64,000 bases of DNA from Massalongia carnosa (taxonomy: Eukaryota): the NCBI GenBank assembly GCA_965645245.1, contig OZ287085.1, positions 124,001 through 188,000 on the forward strand, in the 5' to 3' direction. This document shows, in pieces, positions 1 through 50,835 of this stretch. The position numbers and the translations under genes are program-made. Numbering within the stretch: position 1 is the stretch's first letter; each line of letters starts with the position of its first letter. The notes below the pieces were generated by a model that was given only the letters and a program-made list of their open reading frames with translations, searched no databases and was not told the origin of the DNA.

Positions 1-1
1 C

Positions 2-10995: not shown

Positions 10996-11165
10996 CTCGT
11001 GTCTCGATAAGCATGCTAGAAGCCTTAGCAGCCTTTTTCGGGTTATTCTGTTACTGTTCCCGTTCATGATATGAATTACTACGTAGAATTACACATAAAT
11101 CCTGATTAAAATTTTCCGGGTAAATTTGTTTGATTCTATCAATTCTGATGTGAATTCAACTGTTA

Positions 11166-31527: not shown

Positions 31528-32721
31528 ATGTCTTCGTCTTCAGAAGAGATGACCGTCCCCCAAAATCCTCTCATCGACGAGAACGTGAAGTTGTTTCAAA
31601 ACCAGTTCCAAACCAATCCTGAAGCATTCGTCGCGGAAATACGACGACTTCAAGACGAGGTGGCCCGGTTGCAGGCCGCCCCAGCTCCCGACCCCCCTAT
31701 ACCCACTCCAGCATCAACCTCGTCTCCCTCGTCCGTTCCGGCAATGGACCCTCAGATAGCTGCCCTCCTGCAGCTCCTTTTGACCCGGAATTCCGAGTCC
31801 AAAACCGATCTTCGTTCCGAAAAACTTCCCGACATCTCCGAGTACGATGGAGATGAAGCCAAGTTGGACTCCTGGGAACAGAGCCTGATTCAACGGATGC
31901 ACGTTAATCATGATCGATACTCCACCGATGCCTCCAAGATTGCATACGCGGAGAATCGGCTCACCATCGGGAAACGAGCTCACAACCTTATGAATGCGTA
32001 TCGAGTGGATGGCATTTGTAGACTCACCACCTTCTCCGAATGGCGTTCTGCTCTTCGCCTAGCCTGCGGCAACCCCTTCGAACAAGAGGATGCCCGTAAG
32101 TACCTTCGAGAAACCCTCAAGCAGGGCTCTCTGAGTTTCGAAGAGTACAACACTCTCTTCTCTCAGAAAAAAGACCGATCCAGAATGGAAGACGCTTCGT
32201 TGATTGATGCCATGAAGGCAAACATCAACTACTCCGTTCAAACAGCGGCCGTCCACTACCGAGTCCCCGGCACCAATCTGGAGCCAATCACCTTCGACGA
32301 GCACGTCGCAATGTGGTTAAGCACGGACCGGAAAATCCGTCAGATCCGTCATCTGGCACCCAAGGCCACGACTCCGGCCACATCAGCTCCCGCCAATCGA
32401 AGAAACGGCACCAACCTTCCTGCTGCCCCTTTCCCCCGCACTGTCGTCACGGGCACGGTCACCCCATTGATCCCAACCCCCGCCTTCCCCCCAGCTGGAG
32501 ACCCCATGGACCTAAGTCAGGCCATGGCGGCTGTCAAAGGTCAGTCGTTGAAAACCGAGGGAGTAAGGAAGATCTGCGAGAATTGGAACCTGTGCTTCTA
32601 TTGCAAATTGCAACACCTCGGGTCGGCCTCCGACTGTCCAAATAAGCCTACCAAACGCCTTCGCAACATGGAAGTCGTCTCGACCCTCACTCCCGAGACT
32701 GACGACTCGGGAAACGTCTAG
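31528..32721 (+). CDS. gag: Gag of Gypsy B
   Basis: SEKLPDISEYDG, LKQG..SFEEY, DPMDLS and atypical knuckle CFYCKLQHLGSASDC. Confidence 0.92.
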   Translation: MSSSSEEMTVPQNPLIDENVKLFQNQFQTNPEAFVAEIRRLQDEVARLQAAPAPDPPIPTPASTSSPSSVPAMDPQIAALLQLLLTRNSESKTDLRSEKLPDISEYDGDEAKLDSWEQSLIQRMHVNHDRYSTDASKIAYAENRLTIGKRAHNLMNAYRVDGICRLTTFSEWRSALRLACGNPFEQEDARKYLRETLKQGSLSFEEYNTLFSQKKDRSRMEDASLIDAMKANINYSVQTAAVHYRVPGTNLEPITFDEHVAMWLSTDRKIRQIRHLAPKATTPATSAPANRRNGTNLPAAPFPRTVVTGTVTPLIPTPAFPPAGDPMDLSQAMAAVKGQSLKTEGVRKICENWNLCFYCKLQHLGSASDCPNKPTKRLRNMEVVSTLTPETDDSGNV

Positions 32722-35700
32722 ACTCTGCGCATCGTCGCGCGCAGAGCCCTATTTTAATTTCTTCTTGTCTGTTAGCCAACTCGTTTTCTCCCCCCCTTCA
32801 ATCAAACACTCGTTTTTCCGCAGCCTCCGCTTTGGAGCTGTTTGAAACCGAAGAAGCGTTTCGAGATAGCCACCTAGTGGTATCATGTATCTTACGTTTA
32901 GGTAGATCTCGAATTCAAGCTCTCAATCTGATTGATTGTGGTGCATCTGGCTATGCATTCATTGACAAGAAGTTTGCGCAAACTCACCAAATCCCCCTTC
33001 ATCCCCTCAAATACGCCCGACGCCTTGAAGGCTTCGACGGTCAGCCGGCTCTGACTGGAAATATCACTCATGTGGCCGAGGTAATCATGGACTTAAACGG
33101 ACATGTAGAAAGATTATTCCTTTTCGTAACAGGACTGAAAACCTACCCCATCGTCCTGGGACACCCGTGGTTGCGACGACATCAAGCTCTCGCTGATTTC
33201 GAGTCCAACTCTCTCTCCCTGTCTTCCTCTTTCTGCCTGGCTCATTGTAGCCCTCATCCAGTCAAGGTGAAGGCCTACACGGGCGAGAAATTCCTATCTC
33301 CTGCGGAAAGTCAGGAAGTATGGGAATCGGAAAACTACTCGTCCAATAGTCAAATCCTGTCCGAAAAACCTGTCCTGTCCGATAAAACCACGCCGCGCGA
33401 TAGTAAGACAACTTCTCTCGAAAATCAGGACATCAGTCGTATCGAAAAAGCGATTGAACAGGGCGACTCACCGAAAATCCGATATCGAAGTCCCTCTTCG
33501 TATCGCACCTCCACTCAGCGACATGCTGCCCAGCAGAATCGCAATCCTCCTGTTTTGGACGTCTGTGAAATCGGCGCCCTCAACTTCAACTATCTCGGAC
33601 GAAAAAAGAGTCACGAGATGTTTGCTCTCTCCTTGAAAGAAATCGATCACTTTCTCGGCCTGACTCAACCTGAACCTAAGCCTGAACCCAAACCTGAATC
33701 TCGCCTTCGTCAAGAGACTGACTGGGCACACTCGAAACCAACCTACCAACCCAACCCCCGGTCCAGCCCTAGTGAAAAGAAATATCACTTAGCCCTGTTC
33801 CGTATGAACCAGGCTCTGACACAGTTATGTTCAGTGACCGAACCCGAACCTCAACCCTTGACACTGCAATCATCAGTGACCGCCGAAGAACTGAACGCTT
33901 ATCGTGAGCGAAAGAACGTCGACCCAGCCCCCCTTCTACCCAAACAGTATCACGACTTTCTGGATGTCTTCTCCAAAAAAGAATCGGACGTCCTGCCCGA
34001 ACACCGACCCTACGACCATGCCATAAAGCTAAAAGAAGGCTCTCCAATCCCGAATCAAGCTCTTTATGGCATGAGTCGAACCGAAATCGAAGAACTCCGA
34101 CGCTACCTTGATGAGAACCTGTCGAAAGGCTTCATCCGAGCTAGTAAATCCCCCGCTGCCTCCCCAGTCATGTTCGTAAAGAAGCCAGGAGGAGGACTTC
34201 GCTTCTGTGTCGACTATCGAGGCCTCAATGCCATCACGATTAAGAATCGGTATCCGCTTCCCCTGATCACCGAAACCCTGAATCGCCTGAGTCGGGCTAA
34301 GATATTCACCAAGCTGGACATTATTTCAGCGTTCAATCGGCTCCGCATCAAGGAAGGAGATGAAGAACTCACCGCATTCAGAACCCGTTTTGGCCTCTTC
34401 GAATCCCTAGTCCTACCATTCGGCCTCTGTAACGGCCCCGCCTCCTTTCAACACTTCATCAATGATACTCTTCGAGAGTATCTCGACGACTTTTGCACGG
34501 CCTATCTAGATGACATTCTCATCTACAGCGAAATTGAAAGCGAGCATGAAATCCACGTCAAACGTATCCTCATCAAGCTGAGAGAAGCCGGGCTGCAAGT
34601 AGACATCACCAAATGCAAATTTCATGTCACAGAAGTTGCCTATCTCGGACTAATCGTAACCACCGAGGGAATCAAAATGGACCCCGCTAAAATCGAAACA
34701 GTAACTCATTGGCCAATACCGATCAATATGAAAGATGTACAAAGCTTTCTGGGATTTGCTAACTTCTATAGACGATTCGTATACGGCTTTAGTAAGATAG
34801 CCGGCCCACTGACGAATCTAACCAAAAAGGAGGTCAGCTTTCAATGGACTGACAAATGTCAACAGGCATTCGAAACTCTAAAAAAAGCTTTCACCTCGGA
34901 ACTAATACTGATGCATTTCGATCCCGATCGTCCTATCATCGTGGAAACCGATGCTTCGGACTACGTCTCTGGTGGTATCCTTTCTCAGTATGACAACGAG
35001 AACGTGCTTCGCCCCATCGCATACTTCTCCAAGAAACACAACCCGGCCGAATGCAATTATGAGATCTATGACAAGGAACTCATGGCCATCGTCCGATGCT
35101 TCGAAGAATGGAGACCGGAATTGGAAGGTTCTGCTCACCCCATCAGCGTTATCTCAGATCATAAGAATTTGGAATACTTCGCTTCAACCAAACAACTCAG
35201 TCGTCGTCAAGCTCGCTGGTCCGAATTCTTATCCCGATTTGACTTTAAAATAGTCTATCGACCCGGAAAAGCTGGTGGAAAACCAGATGCACTGACTCGT
35301 CGCTCAGGAGACCTCCCTAAAGAGGGGGATGAAACTGATGAAAGACATAAACATCAGCATCAAACCATCCTGAAAACTCATAACCTGGACGACGAAGTGG
35401 CGAAAAGTTTCTTATCCACGATTATCCTAGCCCCCGCGTTCATCGAACAGGATCCCGAGTCCGTTGAACATGATCACGAGTTCATTGAACCTGAACCACA
35501 GCTGGATCAGCCTGCCGACCAAACCAATCCTGGCCAAGACCCGACCGACGTCCCAACTCAGCTGTTATGGGAACAAGCTCTGGAACAGGATCAATTCTCT
35601 CTGAAAGTTCTAGACATGCTTCGCAATAATGTCAGATATCATAACGGCATTCAGCTAGCCGAATGTGAAGATAAAGAAGGGATTCTTTATTTTCGAAACC

Positions 35701-37100
35701 GTCGATACGTCCCCAATTCGGATCGGCTCCGTCTCCGTCTCATTCAACAGGCACACGACAGCGTAGCAGGTGGCCATCCCGGTCGTTCCAAATGCTACGA
35801 ACTAATGAATCGATCATACTGGTGGCCCAGTATGCATCAAACCGTCAAACGATTCATTCGTAACTGTCACACCTGTAGACGATCCAAACCATCCCGCCAA
35901 CGATACCAAGGATGGCTACGCCCTCTGTCCCCACCCGAACGTCGATGGCGTGACGTTTCCATGGACTACGTAGGTCCGCTGCCTCCGAGCACCTTCATGG
36001 GTATAACCTATCGTTATATCCTCGTCTTCATCGATCGCCTTTCCAAGATGCGACATTTCGTCCCCACCACCTCCATGGAGGTAGAAGAGGCTGCTAATTC
36101 CTTCTACCAAAATGTATGGAAATTACACGGTCTTCCAGACGCCTTGATTTCGGATCGAGGCACCCAATTCACCTCCGATTTCTGGGACATCATGTGTAAA
36201 CGGCTTAGAATTGATGCTAGGCTATCAACCAGTTTTCATCCCGAGACAGATGGCCAAACCGAGAGGGCTAATGCAACCATGGAGCACTATCTTCGGGCAT
36301 ACGTCAATTACATGCAAGATGACTGGGCCCAGTACTTACCCGGTGCCGAATTCTCCAGCAATAACACCGACTCCTCCAGCATTCTCGCCTCTCCCTTCCT
36401 GGCTAATTATGGACAACACCCCAGGGTAGGATTCGAACCCGAAGGGCCCCTTCCGCAAGACCTGACCGCCCAGGGAATCGCTAACCTGATCGCCGCCAAT
36501 CGATTCGTAGACAAGATGCGAGACGTAGACACTCACCTACGAGAAGAGATGTTGATCGCGCAGGCCTCATACGAATCTTCCGCCAATGAGAACCGCCGTC
36601 CCTGTCCTCGTTATCTTGTAGGAGACATGGTATGGCTGAACACCCGAAATATCCAGACAGCCCGTCCGGCAGCCAAACTGGACGATCGAAATGTCGGTCC
36701 TTACCGAGTCTGTAAGGTGTTCGCCAACCCTCTTGTTGTTCAACTGGAACTCCCCGACACGGTTAAAATTCATCCGGTCTTTCATGTAAATCTGCTACAA
36801 CACGACGCAGACGACCCCCTCCCAGGACAAATTCCCGAGCTTCGCGACCCAATAATAGCCGAAGATGGACAGCGAGAATGGTATGTCAACAGCATTCTGA
36901 ACTCGAAACTGGACAGACGTTATCAACCTCCGCTTCTCAAGTATTTCGTCAACTGGGAAGGACATACCCCCACCTGGGAGCCATTTCACCTACTAACCAA
37001 CTGTCAACAAGCTCTGGACGAATTCCACGAAGCCTATCCTGGTGCATCCGGCCCACATCTCACCCCCTGTTCCATTCCTCGATGTCGCTGTCATGAATAA
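32709..37100 (+). CDS. pol: Pol of Gypsy B (PR-RT-RH-IN-chromodomain), reached by -1 frameshift
   Basis: LIDCGA, YLDD, ETDASD, H..GHPG..C..C, SDRG, chromodomain. The -1 frame is open from the G GGA AAC slippery site. Confidence 0.95.
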   Translation, partial: GKRLDSAHRRAQSPILISSCLLANSFSPPLQSNTRFSAASALELFETEEAFRDSHLVVSCILRLGRSRIQALNLIDCGASGYAFIDKKFAQTHQIPLHPLKYARRLEGFDGQPALTGNITHVAEVIMDLNGHVERLFLFVTGLKTYPIVLGHPWLRRHQALADFESNSLSLSSSFCLAHCSPHPVKVKAYTGEKFLSPAESQEVWESENYSSNSQILSEKPVLSDKTTPRDSKTTSLENQDISRIEKAIEQGDSPKIRYRSPSSYRTSTQRHAAQQNRNPPVLDVCEIGALNFNYLGRKKSHEMFALSLKEIDHFLGLTQPEPKPEPKPESRLRQETDWAHSKPTYQPNPRSSPSEKKYHLALFRMNQALTQLCSVTEPEPQPLTLQSSVTAEELNAYRERKNVDPAPLLPKQYHDFLDVFSKKESDVLPEHRPYDHAIKLKEGSPIPNQALYGMSRTEIEELRRYLDENLSKGFIRASKSPAASPVMFVKKPGGGLRFCVDYRGLNAITIKNRYPLPLITETLNRLSRAKIFTKLDIISAFNRLRIKEGDEELTAFRTRFGLFESLVLPFGLCNGPASFQHFINDTLREYLDDFCTAYLDDILIYSEIESEHEIHVKRILIKLREAGLQVDITKCKFHVTEVAYLGLIVTTEGIKMDPAKIETVTHWPIPINMKDVQSFLGFANFYRRFVYGFSKIAGPLTNLTKKEVSFQWTDKCQQAFETLKKAFTSELILMHFDPDRPIIVETDASDYVSGGILSQYDNENVLRPIAYFSKKHNPAECNYEIYDKELMAIVRCFEEWRPELEGSAHPISVISDHKNLEYFASTKQLSRRQARWSEFLSRFDFKIVYRPGKAGGKPDALTRRSGDLPKEGDETDERHKHQHQTILKTHNLDDEVAKSFLSTIILAPAFIEQDPESVEHDHEFIEPEPQLDQPADQTNPGQDPTDVPTQLLWEQALEQDQFSLKVLDMLRNNVRYHNGIQLAECEDKEGILYFRNRRYVPNSDRLRLRLIQQAHDSVAGGHPGRSKCYELMNRSYWWPSMHQTVKRFIRNCHTCRRSKPSRQRYQGWLRPLSPPERRWRDVSMDYVGPLPPSTFMGITYRYILVFIDRLSKMRHFVPTTSMEVEEAANSFYQNVWKLHGLPDALISDRGTQFTSDFWDIMCKRLRIDARLSTSFHPETDGQTERANATMEHYLRAYVNYMQDDWAQYLPGAEFSSNNTDSSSILASPFLANYGQHPRVGFEPEGPLPQDLTAQGIANLIAANRFVDKMRDVDTHLREEMLIAQASYESSANENRRPCPRYLVGDMVWLNTRNIQTARPAAKLDDRNVGPYRVCKVFANPLVVQLELPDTVKIHPVFHVNLLQHDADDPLPGQIPELRDPIIAEDGQREWYVNSILNSKLDRRYQPPLLKYFVNWEGHTPTWEPFHLLTNCQQALDEFHEAYPGASGPHLTPCSIPRCRCHE

Positions 37101-37639
37101 AACTGCTTCGCAGGAGCTCAGCTCTTGAAAGGGGAGCTACTGTCATGAAATCGAACCAACCCGATCCAGAATCAATCCCGCAGATGAATCTGACTAAGCT
37201 CCCGTTCCTCTATTCAGCTTAGTCAGAATCTCATTAACTAAATCGAGTTTAGACCCCTCTCAACGGCTTCAGGTCAAAGCTGTACCATCACCATCAAAGC
37301 GTACCAACGACAGGAGAACCTCATCTCCACCTTTTATCGTCAAACACCTCGTCAAACCTTCGTGCCGTACGTCTCCTAATAGGGGGAGATGAACACTGAT
37401 CGAATCTTCATGCAAAGGGGTTCGAGACAAATATAAAAGGAAGGACAAGTTAATTAGATTGTTGACTCCTTGTCCGACGTCTTGTATAGCAATCCATCAC
37501 CTAGCTATAGCCTTATTAATAAAGACATCTTGATCACCCAATCCAATTCCTAGGAACATTAGTTCAATCCCCTGCCCAGTCCTTGACATCATGCTACTAT
37601 ACCTACAAAGTGAATTTATATTTCATAGAATCAATCCGC

Positions 37640-38099: not shown

Positions 38100-39560
38100 G
38101 GAAATACGAATGTTGTGAAGAATAGAAAGGAGAAAAGTCATATCAAATCATTATCTCATTAACGAGCATCATTGTAAGCTTAACTTCCTCATTTTTCAAC
38201 TCAGCGATATAGCTGGATTTCTCTCGGGTCGCGGATGTTGGACTTGAATAAACGGGTTGACTGTCTCAAGCTCAGGAATGCACGGAAGAACCGTATGCGA
38301 ACGTTCAGTCGATTGAGGAGAATGTGGGGCTTTCGAATCGTTGACTGCAGATGTCTTGTTCGAGGAACTCTAGTGGTTCATTCGTGGCTCGGCTTGTGTA
38401 GCTGTTGAAAGTATCTTCCATCTCACTGGAGATTTCGTGACAGTTTGAAGACTCCTCATCGTCGAGCGCTCCTCGGTTGCCGAAGATTGTAAACTCGCTT
38501 GAGGTTTCGGCCTCGTTGGTTCCATCTCTGCCGTTGCTAATTCTCCCATCACCGACTGATTCCATGCCGTTGGCCCACCGCCTGCTGTTGCAGCTGAAGA
38601 CAGAACGAATGCGGCATCTGTGCAAGCATTGTTTACTGAATAGCCGAAGGAATCCCTTGATCGCGTTTGAGAGTCCCGATCGTCTATGGCTTGAGAATGT
38701 AGATGAGACTGCTGTTGATTAGGCAGAGCCGATAGAAAAGCCGTGAGCGGGCCGTCAAGTTCCGCCCAATTCTCCGCTGCCATTACTTTCCCATCTGCGG
38801 TTGAGGACTTTCTCGGTGCGGGCATCTCTTCCGGACGTGGTGACCCCTATCCGCTGAGAGCTCCGCCACACTTGACAGTCCTGCGATTGAGTATTCCGCT
38901 GCCATTGGGTACTCCTCCGCCAACTCTAATTCCGCCACCAATCCATCCGCCACTGTTTGCCCCATTGTCGCAGCTTCCACCGCTGGATGGTCCACCGTCA
39001 TCGCTTCCGGCGCAGAAAGTTCCGCCTCCCACTCCTTCATCAGCTCATCGGCGGGTTGGGATGACTCTATATTTTGCGTTAGCTTCGTTACAGTCATATG
39101 AAAGGTAACCAGCAATCTTGATCTATCATCGTCCTGCATCTCACTGACAGTTTCATGTGTTTCCTGCAATCGCTGGCCGACTCAAAACGCTTGGGGCAGT
39201 GAGCGCACACGAAAGCAAAACGGGCTACGAGACAATTGCGGTGCAAGACGTCTGGAGATTAGTGCAGATGCTCACGAAACGCATCCTTGCGGGAATATCC
39301 GCGCGAGCAAACCGGACATTGAATGGGCTTCCTTGCTTTCGGTCTCTGGAGCCTGGTGTTTTCGGCTGTCACCACACGGTTGTGCCTTTGCTCCTGTTGA
39401 ATTTGCGAAACATCCACATCGTGATTCCATCGTCGTCCAGTTCAGGGCGTTCCGTCATCCGCGTGCGGGAGTCATCCTCATCTGACGCATCGGCTTTTCC
39501 ACGATTTCTTTTCGAAGACACGGGAAGATCTAACTTCAAGGATATGGAGGCCATGTAAGG
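38100..39560 (-). pseudogene. Decayed C2H2 zinc-finger protein gene
   Basis: A frame not shown in the ORF track reads KPIQCPVCSRGYSRKDAFREHLH*SPDVLH...FVCAHCPKRFESASDCRKHMKLSVRC (~39330-39135), with TAA at 39261-39259. Downstream frames are broken and increasingly AT-rich. Boundaries approximate. Confidence 0.65.
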
Positions 39561-40316
39561 GAGAAGAATACCGTTGAGAGTTCCAATTAACAGAACGCAA
39601 AGGAGAGTGGGTGGGCCGCGAGGAGACCCTACAGACACCGAATGGACTTTCCATCCGTGGTGGGTGAGATAGTCTCGGCAACATCTTGCGACCAGCAATC
39701 GATGGTGCAACTGCTTTGTTCTCTCAACCAGAAGCAGAGGAAGAAAAAGAACGAAGCTGCTTCACGTCTGCGGGGAGATTAGTCATCTCGGAATGGTGGC
39801 CGAACGGGGGTGCTGGAACCTCCGAGTGGAGGTACCTGTAAGACGACGTGCACGCAATATTGTGTGCTGTGGCGTAAATGCGCTTGACTTGAACGCGTTT
39901 TACGAATCGTCACATGTTTTTTGTATGACAAACCACTTCGTGGCTGTCATTATACCAATTTCATCAATGCCCACAGCCAAATTAGGTGATCTGTAGTTAG
40001 TGTGTCCCATGTGAAGCAAGGCCATTCGGAGAAGTTAGACCCTGACTCGGTTGGGGTTTAGTGTTTTGGCACGATTTCGTGATCTGTTGCACAATTATGA
40101 GTCAGCCATAAGTCAGCCATAGGCGGAAGTGCGGAATGACAAGCCGTGATCTATCTAATCTTATCTTGGCGATCTAGTGTGGTAGTCACAGCAACGTCTC
40201 TGACCAAGGGCAACCAAGAAGAGATGGGTTAGAAGAAGCATCGCGATACATGAAAAATATCGATTGCGGGTGCACATGTTTATTGACATAATTGACATTC
40301 CCTTGTAGCCTATAGC

Positions 40317-42500
40317 ATGGCTTTACGACGGGAGTCAGATTTTCAGCGACTGGAGGAACGTTTGAGGGAAGCGGAACGGCGCGTTCGTGCTACCACCTTT
40401 GACGAGTACGTAAAAGCCTGTCATGAACACATCTCGAAGCGCTTTTCCATTCAAACAACCGAGAGTCTGGCCACGACGGGCGCGCTCACCAGCGTGACGG
40501 GCAAGGTTTGTCCCGGCAAATTACGGCGTTGGGAGACCTTTTACGACGCGCAAGCATCGTGTCTGAGCCATGCGCGAAAACTCTTCCACGCGGATGACGG
40601 GCCTCGGGCACGGCGATTTGCCACGGTGCAGCATCTGAAAGAGCTGGGAGACGACCTCTGCCAGCGGAAATACGCCAGCGAATCGGATCTCGCAATTTAC
40701 GAGCGGCTCGCCGTGGAAGGGCCAACGGCGAAAATTATGGAACAGCTGAGCCAGCTGACCGAGCTCGATGGCCTGGTGTTTGATAACCATGCGAATTCAT
40801 TGAACGATCAAGGAGAAGAGGCGCTGGAGCGTGATGTGACGGAGGAGCTACAGAGCTTGGCAATTCAGGAGCATACAACCACGCACGAAGCGTCAGCTGT
40901 GCTGAAAGGTGGTCGACCGGATCAATATTGTATCTACAAGGCCGCTGGTAGCCACAAGTTGCTGTTGGTGGCCGAATACAAAGCCGCACACAAACTTTCC
41001 GTAGCAGACCTTCAACGACGACTACGTCCCATGGACCTCATTAGCGATGTTATTAACATCGCCAAGTGGGAGACCAAGCAGGACGAGTGTGATCATAAAG
41101 CGGACTGGCGCATCGGATCCGCGGTCACGCAAGCCTTCTCGTACATGATCGAGAATGGGCTGGAGTACAGCTACATCACGACCGGGGCGGCCCTCGTCTT
41201 CCTCTGGGTGCAGGCGAATGACCCAGCCACCGTGTATTACCACTTGGCCGTGCCGAGCGAGGACGTGGACCAGAATTGCTTTGATTGGCAACGCACGTCC
41301 ATCGCTCAAGTGCTTGGCCTATGCCTGATGGCCTTTCGGTCCAAGCAATCGACCGAGAGGGATCAAGCGTGGCGGGACAAGACAATCAATGAGCTGGACA
41401 TCTGGGAGAGAAATGTGGATCTGTCGAGCCAATCCGACGAAGACGAGAAAAAGACCGAAACTCCGTGTTCACTGTTCAAGGTCAAAGGCGGATTCAAGAT
41501 CATGAAAGACCCGGAACGCACTCCGATCAAGCTTCGGCTGAGACCAAGAGAACGCTGCGCACCAGCTTCGGTGGTCGATCCGAATCCTGACGAATCATCG
41601 TCGGATAACCCTTCGGAATCGGAGAGGCAGATGAAAGATCAAAGTAGGGATCACACGCAGCAGCCACGACATCAACCGAAGGAGCAAGATCAACTGCCAC
41701 GAAACGAGGACCACGGCCAAGGCAAACACCACACCCGACAGTATTGCACACAGAAATGCTTGCGAGGGATCCGTCACCACTCCGCGCTGGACGAGCTCTG
41801 CCCCAACGTGTCGCAGCATCGGAGAAAGGGTTGCCATCACACTGTCAGCCTGCAGCAGTTCACGGCGCGGGTGAAAGCGCAACTCAACCGGACCCTGGAT
41901 CGGGACTGCGAACCGCTCGGCCAACAGGGGGCCCGAGGCGCACTGTTCCGAATTCGATTGGCCTCGCACGGTTATGTCTTCGTGGCCAAAGGGACTATCC
42001 GCGCGTTTGTGCCCGACTTGCTACACGAAGGAAAGGTGTATCAACAATTGCAACACCTTCAAGGCCACGCCGTCCCGGTTCATCTGGGCAACATCGACCT
42101 CGCCAAACGCTACCGCCTCGACGTCGGGGTCCACATCGTGCACATGCTTCTCATGTCCTGGGGCGGGGAGACGGTCGGGGTTGATGACGAAACGGCACAC
42201 GACAGGCCCGGGTTTTCCGAGAAACTCCGCTGTACAGTGGCCGGGGTGGCGCGAGCGGGAATCGATCAGGCCGATCTGCGCATGCCGAACGTCCTGTGGA
42301 ACCGCGAACTCGATTGCCCGATGCTGATCGATTTCGAGCGCGCCGTGTTTCTGCGACACTCTCGGTCTCGATCGAAAGGGGGAAGGGCGGTATTGCGCGA
42401 GGTTTCGTTCAATGAGCAGGCGGTGGATGACGGCGGCGAAAAGAAGGGGAGGAAGAGGGTAAGAGGAGGAGGATGGGGAGGGGGAGTGGAAATGGAATGA
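40317..42500 (+). CDS. Spok-family (spore-killer-like) protein: coiled coil + PD-(D/E)xK nuclease + Cys cluster + kinase-like domain, 727 aa
   Basis: Motifs in Spok order: TTFDEYVKACH, GKVCPGKLRRW, RPD...EYKAAHK, TQAFSYMIENGLEYSY, TRQYCTQKCLRG..LDELCPNVSQH, GYVFVAKGT, HEGKVY..L.HLQG..VPVHLG, MLLMSWGG, ADLRMPNVLWN and IDFERA. Intact, intronless ORF. Confidence 0.88.
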   Translation: MALRRESDFQRLEERLREAERRVRATTFDEYVKACHEHISKRFSIQTTESLATTGALTSVTGKVCPGKLRRWETFYDAQASCLSHARKLFHADDGPRARRFATVQHLKELGDDLCQRKYASESDLAIYERLAVEGPTAKIMEQLSQLTELDGLVFDNHANSLNDQGEEALERDVTEELQSLAIQEHTTTHEASAVLKGGRPDQYCIYKAAGSHKLLLVAEYKAAHKLSVADLQRRLRPMDLISDVINIAKWETKQDECDHKADWRIGSAVTQAFSYMIENGLEYSYITTGAALVFLWVQANDPATVYYHLAVPSEDVDQNCFDWQRTSIAQVLGLCLMAFRSKQSTERDQAWRDKTINELDIWERNVDLSSQSDEDEKKTETPCSLFKVKGGFKIMKDPERTPIKLRLRPRERCAPASVVDPNPDESSSDNPSESERQMKDQSRDHTQQPRHQPKEQDQLPRNEDHGQGKHHTRQYCTQKCLRGIRHHSALDELCPNVSQHRRKGCHHTVSLQQFTARVKAQLNRTLDRDCEPLGQQGARGALFRIRLASHGYVFVAKGTIRAFVPDLLHEGKVYQQLQHLQGHAVPVHLGNIDLAKRYRLDVGVHIVHMLLMSWGGETVGVDDETAHDRPGFSEKLRCTVAGVARAGIDQADLRMPNVLWNRELDCPMLIDFERAVFLRHSRSRSKGGRAVLREVSFNEQAVDDGGEKKGRKRVRGGGWGGGVEME

Positions 42501-43827
42501 TTGAGGAAGGGGAAGGTAGGATCGAACTGTCGCAAAAGATTGGAAGAAGAATCTTGATGAGACTCGATATTGAGAAAGTCGATGAGATAGAAAAAAAAGA
42601 AAAAGAATAGATATTAATCGACTGTAAAAACAGAAATCAAGATAAAAAACTTTTTTTTGAAAAGATTTCGTGTATGAGAATTTTTTCAATTGGCGATTTT
42701 TTGGAAGTATACTGGTAATAATAATAAAGATTCAGATTTAAAGCCGAGTTTTATTTAATGATAAGTTTATTAATTAATTCGAGATTTGTGTTTTGAATAT
42801 CCCTTCGTCTGGCAATTTGTAAATAAGAAGGTAAACAACAGTTGAAAATCATTAAAACATCTACAATTTCTTTAGAATAATCATGAGAGGCATTGAGATA
42901 GAAGTTCCTGACTAATCAGACGCTTTCCCCCCTCAATTCTGAAAGAACAAGCCAAAAAGAATAAACCTAGCGTACAAAGTATAATTGACTCCATGCCCCC
43001 TCCGTAATCAAATTATTGTCCAATTTCGATCCCATTTCGAAAACCACAGCCGGACGAGACGTTGCGCTTGATAAATCAGACTCCTTTCAGTTTATTCTGC
43101 CTCTTCCTTAGCTTTGAAATGCTTGAAATCATTGCTAAAAACACCAATCTTAAAGCGAAAAAGAAGTATGCCCTAAACGACATCAAGAGACGTCAATGGC
43201 ATGACACCTCTTCTTCTGAAGTAGGAGCTTTTCTGGGAATTCTGTTATATATGGGGTATACATTGATGCCACGTCTTACTGACTATTGGAACACGTCTCC
43301 TAAATTTGCCATACATGACATGGTGATTCAAGCCATGAGTCTTCGAAGATGGGAGCAACTCAAGCGATTTTTGAAGATATCCAACCCCGACGAAGATGAG
43401 ATCATTGATACTCGAGGCCCTGATTTGTGGAAAAAGCTGGAACCATTGGCCACAGACTTTCGAAAAGCATCAAAGATGTAGCACGTCGACCTAGATAGAA
43501 ATCTAATAGGGACTATGTACGAAAACTAGTAAGATGAAGAAAGAAAGCTATGTACAGATCGCCGGTTAATAAACACTCATACCCGTGCTAAGCCTAATGC
43601 AGGTTTTCATCACCGTCGTTGAACTGCTCATACCACGCGTGTTAATAATATCGCTACAAGCAGTGCTAAATCCGTTTTCGGTTAGATAAGGTGAATAGCA
43701 CTACGTCATGTGTTGCCTGAGGTTAGAGCGTTGTAATCCGTGACATTACCCCCTTCTTTAGATCGCGAATCACCTGATCGCGATTAGCGCCGTTCTTGTC
43801 AGGTGACGTAATTCCCGTTGACTGTTG

Positions 43828-46800
43828 TCAACCTGGTGCGAAATTCCACCGTGGTTTGCTAGGATAGCGCAAATAGAAATCCTCCACTATCTCCTTAGCA
43901 TTTTCAAATCCATTAGCATCGTACCAATCTGGATCTTCCGGATGGTCCTTCCATTTGACTCGAAATTGCACCTTTCCTCTTCGCCTTCTGGCATCCAGCA
44001 CGTCATCAACTTCCCATTCTTCCTTACCTTCTATCACTACCGGAGGGGCTGGATCATTGATCTGCCCTGGTAATGGATCCACCGCGGCCTTTCTCAATAG
44101 ACTAGTGTGGAATACATTATGAATTTTCATCGATTCGGGCAGAGCTAGCCTGCACGATGACCCAATCATCTTGTCTATTCGGTACGGTCCGATCATCTTG
44201 TGGTCCAGTTTCTTCGAAGTTCTCTCGGTATGGATATTTTTCGTTGACAACCAAACCATGTCGCCCTCTTCATAGCTGACCTCCTTTCGATTCTGATTAG
44301 CCACCCTTTGCTGTCTATCCTGCGACTTCTTCATGTTTTCGTGAACGAACTCCCAGGTTTTCTTCATCCTTTCGGTGATATTTTGGGCACGTTCCTTAGC
44401 TAACCTTTCTCGAGTAGTATCTGCAGATAGATCAACCACATCGAAACTCATCCTTGGTTCATATCCCTTTGTGGCCATAAACGGTGTCAACTTGGTGGAG
44501 GCCGATTCGCAAGCATTGGCCGCAAACTCCGCCATCGGTAGTAGCATCACCCAATCATCCTGGAAATAGTTTACATAGCTGCGCAGGTGACGCTCCATTT
44601 CCTGATTGGCTATCTCGCTCTGGCCATCGGTTTCCGGATGAAATGCTGTGGAGAGTTTGGCCGTTATACCCAGTATTTTGCACATCGTTTTCCAGACCGC
44701 CGATACAAACTGCGGTCCCCGATCGGATACTATGCTACTGGGCAACCCATGGTATTTCCAGACGTTATTGATCAACAACTTCGCCGTTGCTTCGCTCGTG
44801 GTTCCATGTTCCTCGGTAGTGCATGGTATGTAATGCCTTTCCTTCGATAATCGATCTACCACCATAAGAATCGCATTGAATCCTTCGCCCGACAGTGGAA
44901 GGCCCGTTACGAAGTCTAGTGATATATCCTGCCATGGTTGTTCGGGTATAGATAATGGCCTCAACAAACCATTGTACTTATCTCTAGGTGCTTTCGCGCG
45001 TCTGCAAAAATGACAATTCCGTACATACCGTTTGATATCCGCTTCCATTTTGGGCCAGTAGTAATTCCGAGTTATCATCTCCAAGGTTCGAGCGACGCCA
45101 GGGTGCCCTACAGCTGGCTGATCATGAATCTGACGGATTACCTCCAGTTTCAATTCATCCTGTGCGGGCACCCATAGCTTATTCCGCTTGTATAGCAAGC
45201 CGTCCTTGACCTGACAGTCTTTTAACGCCGGCGAGTTTTCCGAGTCTGAATCAAGTCCAGTGCTTGCAGCACTCAATGCCTGACGCATATTATTGCAATC
45301 CTCATCTGTGACATTGCCCTGCCTTACCTTTTCTTCCAAGGTCTGAACAGTCTCTTCCGTTTCTGTCTCGATGGGCGCCAGTTCGATGCGATTGCGGGGC
45401 AACAGAGTCTGTAGCTGATGCTGTTGGCGTTCGTCCTTCTCATCCTTGGGCTTATCATTGGGTCTCCGGGTTAGAGCATCAGCCTTTTCATTATTTTTAC
45501 CCGTTTGATAAACGATGACGAAGTTGAACTCAGATAGGAATTCCGCCCATCTAGCCTGTCGACGGGTCAACTTTTTGGTAGTCATGAAAAATTCCAAACT
45601 CTTGTGATCGGTGAAGACCTTTATAGGTATTTCTGTGCCTTCCAATTCTGGTCTCCATTGTTCAAAGCATCGAATGATAGCTAACAGTTCTTTATCGTAG
45701 ATCTCGTAATTGCACTCGGCCGGGCTCATGTTCTTTGAGAAGAAGGCTACCGGATGCAACTCGTCATCCTCACCCATTTGGGACAGAATACCCCCACTGA
45801 CATAATCCGAAGAGTCTGTTTCTAACCAACACTGTAGTTTTGGATCGAAATGAGCAAGAACAGGTGCTTCCACCACTCGATCCTTCAGGTCCTGGAACCC
45901 CTGAGCGCAAGCTTCGGTCCATTCGAAGATTCTATCCTTCTTGGCCAGTGCATTTAATGGTCCAGCTAGTTTGGAAAAGCCTCGAATGAAGCGCCGATAG
46001 AAGTTGCAAAAACCTATAAATGATCGCACCTCGCGAAGACAGGTAGGAACGCTCCATTCCATGATAGCCTTTATCTTTTCCGGGTCCATCTTGATACCAT
46101 CCGTGCTGATGATCAGGCCCAAATACTTCGTTTCAGTGACGTGGAATTCACACTTATCCACATCGGCTTGAATGCCTGCCTCTCTTAACTTGGTGAGCAC
46201 TCCCCTTACATGCTGACGGTGTTGTTTCAGATTTCTGCTATAAATCAGAATGTCATCCAGATAGGCCGTACAAAATTTGTCTAAGTATTCAAAGAGGACA
46301 TCATTAATGAAGTGCTGCCACGAAGCCGGTCCTCCAGTCAATCCAAATGGTAACACCTTGTATTTATAGGCCCCAAACCGTGAGTTGAAGGTGGTGAGGT
46401 CCTCCGACGCAGCCTCCATCCGAAGTTTATGAAAGGCCTGACGAATATCTATTTTGGAGAATATTTTAGCCTCTTTCAACTGAGCCAACGTTTCCTCGAT
46501 CAAAGGTATTGGATAACGATCCTTTTTAGTGATCTGATTCAGCCTTCGGTAATCTACGCAGAACCGTAATCCACCACTAGGCTTTTTCGCTAACAGAATG
46601 GGCGATGAGCATGCGGCATGGCTTGCTTCGATAAAGCCTTTTCTGAGATTGTCTTCTAGATATTTCTTGACAAACTCCAGTTCTTTCTGGGACATGCTCC
46701 GAAGAGGACTATATCCATGATCTTTACCCCCTTCGAGCAGTATCTTGTGATCATGCAATCTATGAGGTGACAACGTATCAGAATCTATCTTCGAAAACAC

Positions 46801-47640
46801 GTCCAAAAACTCGTGATACTCCGGCGGCACTACCAACTTTGGATCAGTAGGAGGCCTCGACTCCTTATTCAACTGATCGTCTATGTCCTTCATCGAGATC
46901 GCATAGACTTTTACCGCCTTACAGTGAGTAAGGTATCGGTAGGAGTCTGCACCAATGATGGCTACATCAACCGGTTTAGATGGTTTCGGATCGATCCTCG
47001 GAACTTCCTTTGGGATTGGAGTAGCCTCCGGTTTATCTTCCATGATAGATCGACGCAATATCTTTCGGGGTGAGATCACTGTAGTCAACTCCTCATCCGT
47101 CGATTTTTTATCGATCGTTTCCAGTTTCCTAGGAGGTTCTATCAACTTAGGAGCACCCGGGTGGGTGCAGTGTCCAGGCCAGAACATGATTTTATCGCAA
47201 CTCATGTCCAGAATGACTCCATGCTTTCGCATCCATGGTTTTCCTAGTATCATTTTATGCTGCCCCAGCTGTGTAATCAACAGAGGCGAGATTGTTTCCC
47301 TATGATTCTGCACGGTGAGGGTAGGATAGATGGCGTGGGTGATAGGTTTACCCAAGCGGCCATCGAAACCTCTCACCGGCTTCGGTTTCGTCAATCGCTG
47401 CGGTGATAGTTGCAGTCGTTCACAAATCGTGCGCACCATCTTTTCATCAATAAAAGCATGTCCTGTAGCACCAGTGTCTAACAGAGTAACAAGCTCTATT
47501 TCTTCCTGGTTGCCTAGTTTACATGAAGTAACAAGAGGTTCATCGGTAAACAAATCACCAGGCAAATAAGAGGATGAGATCAAAAGAGGTTTATCATCGT
47601 CATCTCCACTCGCGTCTTCGAGGGAGATCAGTCTTTTTTT
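43828..47640 (-). CDS. pol: Pol of Gypsy C (PR-RT-RH-IN-chromodomain)
   Basis: LLDTGA, YLDD, ETDSSD, SDRGPQF and chromodomain EWEVDDVLD; 1251-aa ORF in the track. Confidence 0.95.
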   Translation of the reverse strand, partial: KKRLISLEDASGDDDDKPLLISSSYLPGDLFTDEPLVTSCKLGNQEEIELVTLLDTGATGHAFIDEKMVRTICERLQLSPQRLTKPKPVRGFDGRLGKPITHAIYPTLTVQNHRETISPLLITQLGQHKMILGKPWMRKHGVILDMSCDKIMFWPGHCTHPGAPKLIEPPRKLETIDKKSTDEELTTVISPRKILRRSIMEDKPEATPIPKEVPRIDPKPSKPVDVAIIGADSYRYLTHCKAVKVYAISMKDIDDQLNKESRPPTDPKLVVPPEYHEFLDVFSKIDSDTLSPHRLHDHKILLEGGKDHGYSPLRSMSQKELEFVKKYLEDNLRKGFIEASHAACSSPILLAKKPSGGLRFCVDYRRLNQITKKDRYPIPLIEETLAQLKEAKIFSKIDIRQAFHKLRMEAASEDLTTFNSRFGAYKYKVLPFGLTGGPASWQHFINDVLFEYLDKFCTAYLDDILIYSRNLKQHRQHVRGVLTKLREAGIQADVDKCEFHVTETKYLGLIISTDGIKMDPEKIKAIMEWSVPTCLREVRSFIGFCNFYRRFIRGFSKLAGPLNALAKKDRIFEWTEACAQGFQDLKDRVVEAPVLAHFDPKLQCWLETDSSDYVSGGILSQMGEDDELHPVAFFSKNMSPAECNYEIYDKELLAIIRCFEQWRPELEGTEIPIKVFTDHKSLEFFMTTKKLTRRQARWAEFLSEFNFVIVYQTGKNNEKADALTRRPNDKPKDEKDERQQHQLQTLLPRNRIELAPIETETEETVQTLEEKVRQGNVTDEDCNNMRQALSAASTGLDSDSENSPALKDCQVKDGLLYKRNKLWVPAQDELKLEVIRQIHDQPAVGHPGVARTLEMITRNYYWPKMEADIKRYVRNCHFCRRAKAPRDKYNGLLRPLSIPEQPWQDISLDFVTGLPLSGEGFNAILMVVDRLSKERHYIPCTTEEHGTTSEATAKLLINNVWKYHGLPSSIVSDRGPQFVSAVWKTMCKILGITAKLSTAFHPETDGQSEIANQEMERHLRSYVNYFQDDWVMLLPMAEFAANACESASTKLTPFMATKGYEPRMSFDVVDLSADTTRERLAKERAQNITERMKKTWEFVHENMKKSQDRQQRVANQNRKEVSYEEGDMVWLSTKNIHTERTSKKLDHKMIGPYRIDKMIGSSCRLALPESMKIHNVFHTSLLRKAAVDPLPGQINDPAPPVVIEGKEEWEVDDVLDARRRRGKVQFRVKWKDHPEDPDWYDANGFENAKEIVEDFYLRYPSKPRWNFAPG

Positions 47641-48908
47641 GACTTCGGCTCAACATCTAACTCGTTAATGATGGCTGTCATCTTTGATTTCTTTTTAGGA
47701 CAGTCCCTTGAGGGATGTCCGACCTCCTTGCAATTGAAGCACTTCCCTTCCCTGCTCAACCGCTCCCGTTCCGAGTCCGATAGATAGGATCCTACGGTCC
47801 AGGACGACAAGGTCGATGGCGATGAAGGGGCACGAGACTCGGTGCGAGCATTTGGTGCCACATAGGTTTTGCTTTCGGTGGTAGCGGTAGGGGTGTTCGC
47901 CGGGACCACTACGCTGGTTGGTTTTTTTCCTTCGGCAAAGCGTTCCATCCTAGCCTTGCTACGATCCACATCCTTCAGAGCCTGATACATGCGCTGGCAA
48001 CGCTGAGCGAACGCATATAGGTCGGTTGGTTCGTGATCGCCGGTGGCTAGCTGACGGCGCATATCTAGGTTGAGCTTGTGTTTCAACTCACCGATTAGGG
48101 TAGACTCATTGTGATCCAACTCGGCGGCCAAACGCTGAAACTCCGCCCAAAAGGTATTGAAGTCCTTTTGACCCTGTCGCAGAGAACGGAATAGGTTCAT
48201 GGCAGTCTGTTTGCGGTTCGGATCTCCATAAATTCGTTCCAAATGATCAAACATTTCCTCTGCAGTAAGAAAAGGTTTGATAGCATTTTTTCGGAGACGA
48301 GGTTCCAAATGGCCCATAGCCTCTCCGCCGACTCGGTTTTCCACATAGGCCTTTTTAAATAGCTCGGTAGGCATATGGTCTTCATTAGCTGCTAATTTGC
48401 TGCGCATTTTAGTCAACCAATGATCGATACTCGGTTCTTTTCCATCGATAAAAACCGGTGGGTCGGGAAGTTTCATCGACTTCCATAAAGATTCTTCGCT
48501 CTGATTGGATCGTGCAGGGGAGCCCTGCAGGTCATGTGGAGGTGGAAATGGTGGTGGTGCATTACTCCCTGCAGGTGCAGTAGCTGCTGTGGCCATCCGC
48601 CGAGCCTCTTCAAGTTCTTCCTTCTGGTATTCAATCATACCTGCTTGGCGATTGATTTTGATCTGACTATCTTCTAAACTAAGCACAAGCTTATTATGTT
48701 CCACCACGACCTCCTCATAGTCTGACTTCATGTCTCGTATTATAGCCAAGACTGTTTCGGCATCCTCCTGCACCCAGTGCCGAAGATGTTGTACTGTTTC
48801 TATCCTCCATGGTGAGTCAGCCCCGGGGCCTTCTTCACCGATGTCTATGGGCGGGATGAGAGACTCCCGTTGATAGTAGGTGGGTGTTTCGTTCGCGGAT
48901 CTAGCCAT
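47628..48908 (-). CDS. gag: Gag of Gypsy C
   Basis: KLPDPPVFIDG and CFNCKEVGHPSRDC; ends at slippery A AAA AAA. Confidence 0.93.
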   Translation of the reverse strand: MARSANETPTYYQRESLIPPIDIGEEGPGADSPWRIETVQHLRHWVQEDAETVLAIIRDMKSDYEEVVVEHNKLVLSLEDSQIKINRQAGMIEYQKEELEEARRMATAATAPAGSNAPPPFPPPHDLQGSPARSNQSEESLWKSMKLPDPPVFIDGKEPSIDHWLTKMRSKLAANEDHMPTELFKKAYVENRVGGEAMGHLEPRLRKNAIKPFLTAEEMFDHLERIYGDPNRKQTAMNLFRSLRQGQKDFNTFWAEFQRLAAELDHNESTLIGELKHKLNLDMRRQLATGDHEPTDLYAFAQRCQRMYQALKDVDRSKARMERFAEGKKPTSVVVPANTPTATTESKTYVAPNARTESRAPSSPSTLSSWTVGSYLSDSERERLSREGKCFNCKEVGHPSRDCPKKKSKMTAIINELDVEPKSKKD

Positions 48909-50835
48909 TTCTATCGCTCTTCCTTACTCAGCTCTGTTGAGTATAGTCCAGTTTCGTTCGTTTTCGGATTGTTATCGGATCTACTATCATATGCTGAGGA
49001 TAGTCCTAGGATTTCGGATCTGGTTCGTGTTTCGGGTGCTGACTGCCTGACGGACTGACATACAGTTGGGTGGATTGTTTTATATCCTCCACAAGGGATA
49101 GCAAGATTTAGAGTGATCTTACTAGTTGTGTAGCACGTCGACCTAGATAGAAATCTAATAGGGACTATGTACGAAAACTAGTAAGATGAAGAAAGAAAGC
49201 TATGTACAGATCGCCGGTTAATAAACACTCATACCCGTGCTAAGCCTAATGCAGGTTTTCATCACCGTCGTTGAACTGCTCATACCACGCGTGTTAATAA
49301 TATCGCTACAAGCAGTACTAAATCCGTTTTCGGTTAGATAAGGTGAATAGCACTACGTCATGTGTTGCCTGAGGTTAGAGCGTTGTAATCCGTGACAAAA
49401 GAAATACTGGATTCCTGGAAGTCATGTGTCAGTTGACGAGCAATTGATTTTATTCAGGGGTAGGAGCTGCCATACTATGCAGATAGCCACCAAGGCGGCT
49501 GGTGTAGGCTTTAAAATCTATAGTTTATGTCAGGAAAATTATCTTTTTGACTTCTTATTTACTTCTAAGGTGAGTAGAAGAGGCCTCAATTTGCATCGTA
49601 CTAATTGCAAGAAAGGTGTCCAAAATTAGTTAGTTAAAAACGCCTGGACAATTGAAATTTCCGACAACCAAATGGGATTTGTCTCCTTCCTCCCTAGTCG
49701 TCATTCAACTGGCTCGAAGTTTACCGTCTGATGAAGACTTGAAATACGTCATCTTTCTGGACAACTTCTTCACAAATACGAAGCTATTCAAAGCTCTGAA
49801 AACCATTGGAATTGGTGCCTGCGGGACGGCTAAATCAGGTTGCGGTTTTCCTGTTGATCTTCTACGTCTGAGGGTTGCAGCCACCAAGAACAAGGACTGG
49901 GGAAAGAAGGCATTGATGACGGTACCTGCAAATAAAAGTAAAAAATCAAATATTGATGACGGGGACATTCTGTGTATGGCATTGGTGGATTTAAACACCG
50001 TGCAATTCATGACCACGGTTTAAACAATTGAGGATTTGAATACTTCTTTCTACAAGAATTCCAATCGACGTCATGGAATTCCTGCAAATTCCAGAGTCAT
50101 CGTTGATGATGAAGAAGAAAAGCTTTCATTTCCCATGCCCATCGTGGAATATAACCAGCACATGGGCGGGTCAGATGGGAATGCATAGCAAAGAGCATAT
50201 TATTCACCTCAAAGATCTGATCGTCACTACTGGTGGTCAATTTTCTTCTTTCTTCTGGATGCAGCCGTTCTAAATGCCTTCAAATTGTGGCGAATTCTGT
50301 ATCCGAATTCAACACTCAGCCATTTGGACTTTCAAAAAGAAATAGTAAATGCCCTACTATCCAATCAAGCCGGTGCCCTACGGAAACGTCCGACAAATGT
50401 CATAGTTACTACTAATCAAGACGTTAATAAAGACGTCGAGTCAACTTGCAAATAGGAGAATTTGAATAAGAAGGACTTTTGTTTGGCCTGCAAAAGGCAA
50501 GTGCCAAGACTTAAACGACGCCGACCACTTGCGGAAATTGATGAAAAATGCACCAAAAGACGACGTGCAAGTCAGACCAGATGGCAATGTAAGAGCTGTG
50601 GACCATGTTGTAAAAAAAAGGCATGTTGGGAAATTTTACATAGCTCATGAGGGGTGATTGAGGTGTTGTACCCATTATCGTTGAAAAGGGAATATCTGAT
50701 AGGCCAGATTAAAGTTATTAGTCATTACCCGGAGACGGCGCGTGTAAAACTGAATATTACCTAAATGGCTGCCAAATTACCAGACGAAGGGATAAAGTTT
50801 TCGAGTTTTGTTTTTGATTATTCAATTTTATATGT

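What the first reader, a model, noticed from the sequence alone, without database searches (positions are those of the whole stretch)
40317..42500. Intact Spok-like (spore-killer family) toxin-antidote gene stranded in a transposon nest
Seen: an unbroken 727-aa ORF among decayed TEs, with an N-terminal coiled coil, a PD..EYK nuclease motif, a YCTQxC..CPN cysteine cluster and a kinase-like C-terminus (KGT, HE, ADL..NVLW, IDFE). Established: this is the architecture of Podospora Spok meiotic drivers, where the nuclease kills and the kinase/Cys region confers resistance; homologues are widespread in ascomycetes and mostly untested. Inference: the catalytic Lys (EYK) and kinase Asp (QADL) are retained while neighbours have decayed, so this may be a functional driver or selfish toxin-antidote gene, possibly favouring retention of this accessory block and the adjacent metabolite cluster.
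Basis: partly seen in the sequence, partly recalled or inferred. Interest (0 to 1): 0.8.

Follow-up and report, generated by a model that had tools for sequence, protein, structure and literature searches.

The report
Intact fungal Spok-family spore-killer gene
This is an unbroken copy of a known and widespread fungal 'selfish' gene family (Spok), whose single protein carries both a DNA-cutting poison and its own antidote; it is an ordinary new member, probably from a lichen fungus, and whether this copy actually kills is untested.

Summary
The 727-aa ORF (40317-42500) is real and belongs to the Spok family. It carries Pfam SPOK2_N, aligns along its length to four curated reference FuSpoks (31.5-33.9% identity), keeps every catalytic residue, and models as a restriction-type nuclease plus kinase. 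It is identical in a second sample.

The 'intact among decayed TEs' argument fails. Both flanking Ty3 elements are young and full-length (LTRs 100% and 99.6% identical; at least 31 near-identical copies of the left one), and the region shows no RIP signal. Better evidence of selection: dN/dS 0.22 against its C16 paralogs, while a shared zinc-finger neighbour is broken at both loci.

The gene is not rare: 18 loci in this genome (9 open), and 1,634 clusters at 50% identity in public data. It lies outside the reference-FuSpok clade and has a very short coiled coil. A ~97%-identical allele in a lichen metagenome is frameshifted before the antidote domain.

Nothing supports protection of a metabolite cluster: the tailoring genes lie ~29 kb away and no backbone enzyme or Starship captain was found. 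Verdict: new member of a known family, about 50% an active toxin-antidote gene.

The parts
40317..42500 (+). Spok-family gene, 727 aa, single open frame
   Evidence: PF27653 SPOK2_N; 31.5-33.9% identity over about 690 columns to reference FuSpoks
40293..40308 (+). Probable 3' end (branch-like TGAC, pyrimidine run, TAG) of a 5'-UTR intron, as described for Podospora Spok genes; inferred, no RNA evidence
   Evidence: conserved in the three C16 paralogs aligned although the DNA upstream is not; Podospora intron: PMC6660238 section 16
40320..40385 (+). Short N-terminal helix / coiled coil (aa 2-23); 14 and 35 aa shorter than in the two intact C16 paralogs through loss or gain of 21-bp repeat units
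40389..41411 (+). Domain 1 plus PD-(D/E)XK nuclease (aa 25-365): D202, E220, K222 (40980-40982), Q272xxxY276; predicted killing part
   Evidence: model matches BpuSI Z 10.2 (rmsd 4.1, 155 aligned), DrdV Z 8.0, V. vulnificus HsdR 3h1t Z 7.6 (rmsd 3.6, 129 aligned)
41457..41732 (+). Disordered linker (aa 381-472)
   Evidence: pLDDT below 50; dN/dS about 0.41
41745..41840 (+). Cys/His cluster C477, C481, C495, H501, H508; predicted part of resistance
   Evidence: spacing variable across the family
41841..42356 (+). Kinase-like domain: K558, E571, catalytic D653 (42273-42275) in a QxD loop, N658, DFE; predicted resistance part
   Evidence: Rio2 best, E 5.7e-06; Z up to 12.3
38270..39554 (-). Head-to-head neighbour: broken gene with two C2H2 zinc-finger-like motifs (frameshift near 39400, stop at 39261-39259); 3' end approximate. 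A separately broken homologue lies about 9 kb upstream of the C16:310 kb paralog in the same orientation
   Evidence: Pfam zf-C2H2 E about 0.002, below the curated cut-off
31010..37588 (+). Young full-length Ty3/chromovirus retrotransposon (context)
   Evidence: LTR 449/449, TSD TCATG, open gag and pol, at least 31 full-length copies
42816..43476 (+). 5' part of a multi-copy piggyBac-like transposon, cut by the next element (context)
   Evidence: DDE_Tnp_1_7 E 4e-21; 39 further copies listed at 96-98%
43477..49397 (-). Young full-length Ty3 retrotransposon inserted in the piggyBac transposase (context)
   Evidence: LTRs 99.6%, TSD AAAGA, open gag and pol

Best explanation
The gene is a Spok-family selfish gene whose one protein is both poison and antidote. 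SHOWN HERE: architecture, catalytic residues, folds and long-term purifying selection. INFERRED FROM TESTED RELATIVES: the N-terminal restriction-type nuclease (D202/E220/K222) damages chromosomal DNA, and the Cys cluster plus kinase (D653) neutralises it in cells that keep making the protein. A spore or hyphal nucleus that inherits the protein but not the gene therefore dies, which favours the gene and whatever DNA is lost together with it. It has sat at this locus for a long time (dS about 0.88 from its closest paralogs); the retrotransposons around it arrived recently. It is one of several divergent Spok lineages in the genome, probably with separate specificities. Family membership is about 0.97; the confidence given is for present-day killing plus self-resistance.
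For: Full-length alignment to FOXG_17087, 12586, 14003 and 16420 (E 9e-94 to 9e-109), which PMC12693581 Suppl. Table 2 lists as reference Spoks. Only 4 of 97 invariant or near-invariant columns differ from consensus, none is a motif residue, and all 4 also differ in both C16 paralogs. Spacing matches SPOK3 as published: Lys to first Cys 255 vs 253, Cys to Asp 176 vs 174. The nuclease model hits the same HsdR structure reported for SPOK3. dN/dS is 0.22 overall, 0.16 in the nuclease, 0.21 in Cys+kinase and about 0.4 in linkers, while the neighbouring zinc-finger gene is broken at both paralogous loci. Killers with experimental support are spread widely over the family: FuSpok1/2 28%, FOXG_14774 26% and NECHADRAFT_82228 30% identical to SPOK3 by Foldseek, with coiled coils from 11 to 114 aa (activity). 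So neither the distance nor the short coil excludes activity. Family dynamics fit a selfish gene: four C16 copies at 92-99.5% nucleotide identity, two already broken, with variable coil repeats.
Against: No expression, toxicity or segregation data. Conserved active sites do not guarantee activity: 4 of 6 FuSpoks had no effect in yeast. The protein lies outside the clade of the four reference FuSpoks (that clade has 100% SH-aLRT), and no tested relative is known to be close. An allele about 97% identical in a lichen metagenome (run X5) lacks one base at codon 383, which ends the frame at codon 396. That would leave the nuclease without the antidote, a state that is toxic for SPOK3(1-490). The caveats: 54 difference rows were not shown, a second X5 contig has a 2-nt insertion at codon 230, and rescue by another copy is possible. 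Listed window-versus-X5 changes are 20 non-synonymous to 9 synonymous, close to neutral. dN/dS against C16 is pairwise and cannot be assigned to this branch.
Confidence: 0.5

Rival explanations
1. A spent driver. The gene was under selection for most of its history but is now silent or fixed and drifting; it is still open only because this genome has no RIP and little time has passed.
For: No RIP signal and intact young TEs all round. 9 of 18 loci in the genome are broken or partial. The X5 allele is frameshifted and has changes at conserved columns (Q479H where 119 of 120 have Q; D430V; Y207N). 20 non-synonymous to 9 synonymous listed differences.
Against: Polarised on the C16 paralog, the changes at conserved columns fall on the X5 side: 10 non-synonymous and 4 synonymous are X5-derived, against 6 and 4 window-derived, none of the 6 at a conserved column; the numbers are too small to separate the branches. 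The gene is identical in a second sample. Recent differences usually over-represent amino-acid changes (general knowledge).
Confidence: 0.22
2. Antidote-only or weak copy. The kinase protects against a related Spok circulating in the population or the genome, while the nuclease no longer kills efficiently.
For: Resistance-only alleles are described (Spok2 of strain A). Very short coiled coil. EYKAAHK in place of the consensus EYKPPHK and G235R near the active site.
Against: The nuclease is the most constrained part (dN/dS 0.16) and all its catalytic residues are present. The deviations are shared with the recently amplified C16 copies. The closest paralogs are only about 68% identical, while far more similar Podospora Spoks act independently.
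Confidence: 0.2
3. Domesticated cell-death or non-self-recognition effector that serves the fungus, like the NLR genes in the same region.
For: NACHT-WD40 and NB-ARC/TPR genes lie in the surrounding 258 kb. Purifying selection. Ankyrin-Spok-kinase fusions exist in other fungi, so the kinase module is reused.
Against: No conserved neighbourhood: 0 of 77 related metagenome loci carry the zinc-finger neighbour. Rapid birth and death of copies. No host function is described in the papers read; PMC12693581 considers it and finds it unlikely.
Confidence: 0.08

Closest known systems
Podospora SPOK1-4 (Vogan et al. 2019, PMC6660238; Urquhart and Gardiner, PMC9972908)
   Same: Domain order, PD-(D/E)XK and QxxxY motifs, Cys cluster, kinase Asp, motif spacing, HsdR-like nuclease fold, probable 5'-UTR intron, variable coil repeats.
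   Different: Coil about 22 aa against 35; QxD instead of HxD in the catalytic loop (shared by 27 of 127 homologues); H-x6-H against x7; no Starship captain nearby. Not aligned directly, because no named Podospora sequence came back from any search.
Fusarium FuSpoks, reference set of Sandell et al. 2025 (PMC12693581), the clade that includes F. poae copies
   Same: 31.5-33.9% identity over nearly the whole length; multi-copy, TE-flanked, with broken copies.
   Different: Separate branch of the family tree; coil much shorter than FuSpok1/2 (87 and 114 aa); on a 1.75-Mb contig not shown to be an accessory chromosome.
FOXG_14774 on Starship Arwing (bioRxiv 10.64898/2026.10.04.756499)
   Same: Same length (727 aa) and kinase Asp at nearly the same place (655 vs 653); the model for retention of linked DNA.
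   Different: That gene rides an intact Starship on a dispensable chromosome; no captain was found here. Not aligned directly.
Pfam PF27653 SPOK2_N family
   Same: Domain precomputed on this protein and on all 120 listed hits; best Atlas clusters carry it in 95-99% of members.
   Different: Family membership says nothing about killing. The held Pfam copy gave no hit on the protein, probably because it predates this model.

Membership tests
Spok | Homology over the whole length to curated Spok proteins (over 30% similarity in Sandell et al.) | tested here: met
   31.5-33.9% identity over 691-712 columns to 4 of 4 reference FuSpoks tested
Spok | Direct alignment to Podospora SPOK1-4 | not testable with these tools
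Spok | SPOK2_N domain (PF27653) | tested here: met
   precomputed on P0001, named
Spok | N-terminal coiled coil | tested here: inconclusive
   helix 2-23 in the model; second shortest N-terminus of 193, 8 of 280 are as short in the larger set; tested Spoks range from 11 to 114 aa; no coiled-coil predictor was run
Spok | PD-(D/E)XK nuclease with catalytic Lys and QxxxY | tested here: met
   D202, E220, K222, Q272, Y276; restriction-endonuclease folds at ranks 1, 3, 4 and 6, Z 7.2-10.2; Foldseek alone gave no hit at E 0.001
Spok | Cys/His cluster C-x3-C-x13-C-x5-H-x7-H | tested here: met
   C477, C481, C495, H501, H508; last spacing is 6, within the family's range of 4-16
Spok | Kinase-like domain with catalytic Asp | tested here: met
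   K558, E571, D653, N658, D672; kinase folds
Spok | Intron-free coding region with a 5'-UTR intron | tested here: inconclusive
   single open frame; conserved acceptor-like sequence before the ATG; no RNA run was listed
Active Spok driver | Toxic when the kinase is disabled, rescued by wild type; spore killing or biased retention | not testable with these tools
   needs bench work
Clade of the four reference FuSpoks | Falls inside that clade | tested here: not met
   18-row clade with 100% SH-aLRT excludes the window protein, which groups with its C16 paralogs and P0003 (60 rows chosen from 243, quick method)
Starship cargo | DUF3435 captain at the head of the element | tested here: inconclusive
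   no DUF3435 match on C19 before 1.48 Mb among 69 matches (60 candidates scored, a lower bound); one captain gave no tblastx hit in C19:1-258,000; a decayed or divergent captain is not excluded

The most novel reading that the evidence does not exclude
This is an active toxin-antidote gene from a branch of the Spok family with no tested member, in what is probably a lichen-forming fungus that carries several divergent Spok lineages, including a four-copy burst on C16. It works with a near-minimal coiled coil, and natural alleles exist that have lost only the antidote half and survive through rescue by another copy. That would extend Spok killing beyond Podospora and Fusarium and supply natural variants for asking what sets killer/antidote specificity.
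Probability: 0.35. Interest if true: 0.5.

Novelty: new member of a known kind. Interest (0 to 1): 0.27.

Why it matters
In the papers read, the tested Spok killers are all from Podospora and Fusarium, while the family has at least 1,634 clusters at 50% identity. Three literature searches and a text search of one lichen Starship preprint found no report of Spok genes in lichen fungi. A positive test here would show that killing is a family-wide property. The short-coil copy next to longer-coil paralogs is a ready-made comparison for the role of the coil. By itself the gene is one of thousands and changes nothing known.

Tried and rejected
1. Decay contrast with TEs: rejected.

2. Presence/absence among samples. 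Runs X6 and X7 held none of the words, but X6 also laid nothing on the multi-copy LTR, so the organism is probably not in that run. X4 matches the window letter for letter at depth 2-6 and looks like carry-over. Neither is evidence of polymorphism. X5 has no cover at 38008-39495 or at 42658-42843; a hole proves nothing.

3. Expression: no RNA holder listed.

4. Starship: no captain found nearby. The phage-integrase hit at C19:116 kb sits beside gag/RT frames and looks like a recombinase retroelement.

5. Self-mobile Spok cassette. The four C16 copies share a 3' boundary, but the flanks are other transposons or a segmental duplication and no terminal repeats or target duplications were seen by eye.

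6. Conserved partner gene: the zinc-finger neighbour is in 0 of 77 related loci.

7. Link to the tailoring genes: only a generic FAD-oxidase similarity in 3 of 77 loci. The scan for a backbone enzyme covered 137 of 149 non-TE frames of at least 130 aa, so genes with short exons could be missed. The own-genome DNA search with 1-11,200 returned only a repeat.

8. Lesion-order test (do broken copies lose the nuclease first?). Among copies with one visible lesion, 6 fall in the front half (L089, L104, L114, L143, C14, C16:362 kb) and 2 in the back half (L145, C18), plus the X5 allele; copies with several lesions or cut by a contig end were left out. Small, non-independent, inconclusive.

9. Finding tested Spoks by short motifs among 376 stored proteins: one F. 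poae N-terminus matched two proteins, three other motifs matched none.

10. The first metagenome scan with the single protein found nothing. 'breB', a database name of an Aspergillus hit, gave no paper. Earlier findings of this scan: nothing in 3 look-ups.

Full report
1. The observation. The window holds one unbroken frame of 727 codons at 40317-42500 (+). The Gln in QADL, where kinases usually have His, is a natural variant (27 of 127). A 2,822-nt contig of a second sample covers the gene without a difference. The coiled coil is short: one helix, residues 2-23, and 25 residues before the conserved TT motif against a median of 64 (193 of 234 proteins scored).

2. The neighbours are not decayed. 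The Ty3 element to the left has identical LTRs (449 of 449), a target duplication, open gag and pol, and at least 31 full-length copies at 98-100% identity among 39 matches listed. The Ty3 to the right has LTRs 99.6% alike and sits inside a piggyBac transposase. The copia further right has LTRs 99.5% alike. Dinucleotide ratios show no RIP over C19:1-258,000. An open frame is therefore not remarkable in this setting. The gene is old at this place and the transposons are recent arrivals.

3. Family. The protein carries PF27653, named SPOK2_N. A search with one Fusarium hit returned four proteins that Sandell et al. list as reference Spoks. The window's protein aligns to all four over 691-712 columns at 31.5-33.9% identity. 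The AlphaFold model (mean pLDDT 81.9) has two ordered halves joined by a disordered linker, 381-472. The C-terminal half matches kinases (Rio2 best in Foldseek; Z up to 12.3). The N-terminal half, folded alone, matches restriction endonucleases: BpuSI Z 10.2, DrdV 8.0, and V. vulnificus HsdR 7.6. That HsdR is the structure reported as best hit for SPOK3 (PMC6660238 section 17). Foldseek found nothing significant for this half, and a mitoribosomal protein ranked second. The aligned ranges start at residue 31 or 117, which suggests that 'domain 1', unassigned in that paper, forms part of the nuclease fold (inference). Motif spacing agrees with SPOK3's published numbering. A direct alignment to Podospora proteins could not be made.

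4. How common. A profile of 121 sequences finds 1,634 clusters (50% identity) at E 1e-30 or better. In this genome 28 matches merge into 18 loci by position (my count). Nine have open frames of 727 aa or more, one of which lacks the Cys cluster; nine are broken or partial. The nearest paralogs are four copies on C16, 73-77% identical to this gene in DNA and 92-99.5% to each other. Two are intact and differ in the number of 21-bp coil repeats, one is cut by an insertion, and one has stops. In a 60-row tree the gene groups with these and lies outside the clade of the reference FuSpoks. A run labelled lichen metagenome holds a close allele, and several named hits are lichen-associated genera (the genus ecology is recalled), so the host is probably a lichen-forming ascomycete.

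5. Evidence on function. For: dN/dS against the C16 copies is 0.22 (dS 0.88), lowest in the nuclease (0.16) and highest in the linkers (about 0.4). A head-to-head zinc-finger gene 762 bp upstream is broken here, and its homologue beside one C16 copy is broken at other places, while the Spok frames stayed open. Killers with experimental support are only 26-30% identical to SPOK3 by structure alignment and have coils of 11-114 residues. Against: 4 of 6 FuSpoks with conserved sites did nothing in yeast, although two of those four kill in filamentous hosts. In run X5 a contig 97% identical (24 differences in 937 nt, depth 40) lacks one base at codon 383, so the frame stops at 396, before the Cys cluster and kinase. 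Another X5 contig has a 2-nt insertion at codon 230. For SPOK3 the nuclease half alone is toxic, so this allele needs a dead nuclease, silence, rescue in trans, or a gene that is not toxic. Of 29 listed coding differences 20 change the protein. Polarised on C16, X5 carries 10 non-synonymous and 4 synonymous changes (including Q479H, D430V, Y207N), the window 6 and 4, and 5 are unpolarised. 54 rows of that table were not shown.

6. Mechanism. From tested relatives: the nuclease damages DNA (PMC9972908), the Cys cluster and kinase give resistance, and cells or spores that keep the protein but lose the gene die. In Fusarium this stabilises a dispensable chromosome (preprint). I give 0.5 that this copy works so today, 0.22 that it is a spent driver, 0.2 antidote-only or weak, and 0.08 a host function.

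7. The accessory-block and cluster idea. The first 258 kb of the 1.75-Mb contig is TE-dense with NLR-type genes, which looks like a fast-evolving region, but nothing shows it to be dispensable. No Starship captain was found near it. The FAD oxidase, rhodopsin-domain gene and two P450s lie about 29 kb away behind many insertions, with no backbone enzyme seen. The idea is possible by analogy and unsupported here.

8. Papers. PMC6660238: abstract, sections 16-19, 22, 41, passages, list of supplements only. PMC12693581: abstract, sections 5 and 14 in full, supplement file 2 parts 1 and 30 and search hits; its alignment rows were cut, which blocked the Podospora comparison. bioRxiv 10.64898/2026.10.04.756499: abstract, sections 7 and 11; its supplements were not seen. 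PMC9972908: abstract and discussion. PMC9156397 and PMC13535494: passages (the 'spok' hits in the latter are a place name). 10.1101/2025.11.25.690456: term search only, no hit. Grognet et al. 2014 is known only through these papers.

9. Verdict. A real, intact, probably lichen-fungal member of the known Spok family, with a history of purifying selection and an untested function. New member of a known kind; interest 0.27.

Noticed in passing
L111:5572-6753, L112, L113, L088:1989-3143, L095:3890-5044, L109:9219-10400: Open frames of 383-392 aa that join ankyrin repeats to a Spok-type Cys cluster and kinase (up to 52% identical to the window's C-terminal half), with no nuclease. In L088, L095 and L109 they lie 1-2 kb downstream of another Spok gene, which is broken in L095 and L109 and cut by the contig end in L088. 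Candidate antidote-only suppressors or a reused signalling module.
   Followed up: partly
L039:1-4860 (G000:C19:1-4860): The contig begins with a 1,620-aa open frame at about 60% G+C with bacterial Ig-like, CHB_HEX_C and malectin domains: probably bacterial sequence joined to the fungal contig, or a transfer.
   Followed up: no
G000:C16:310 kb, 362 kb, 508 kb, 859 kb (L003, L005/L007, L002, L004/L009): Recent four-copy burst of a sister Spok. Two copies share a 7-kb segmental duplication with a Ty3; three have what looks like the end of a Tc1/pogo-type element just upstream (by eye); the coil differs by whole 21-bp repeats.
   Followed up: partly
window 38270-39554 (-) and G000:C16:321.8-322.9 kb: Broken two-finger C2H2 gene head-to-head with Spok at both paralogous loci, the only two copies found in the genome; one low-depth contig of run X4 has an extra base at the window's frameshift.
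   Followed up: partly
L018/L020 (G000:C19:1,430 kb): An open 753-aa Spok paralog that has lost the Cys cluster needed for resistance in SPOK3, while near-identical complete copies exist on C1 and C5: a possible killer rescued in trans.
   Followed up: no
window 27481-27945 (-): 154-aa Cys-rich protein with a signal-peptide-like start and no Pfam hit, between retroelements.
   Followed up: no
G000, many contigs: 69 DUF3435 exon matches on 16 contigs, some as near-identical sets (C11, C13, C19; two on C7): the genome carries many Starship captains.
   Followed up: no
L047-L048 (G000:C19:81-92 kb): Phosphoketolase and formate/nitrite transporter fragments among NLR-type genes and transposons.
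   Followed up: no
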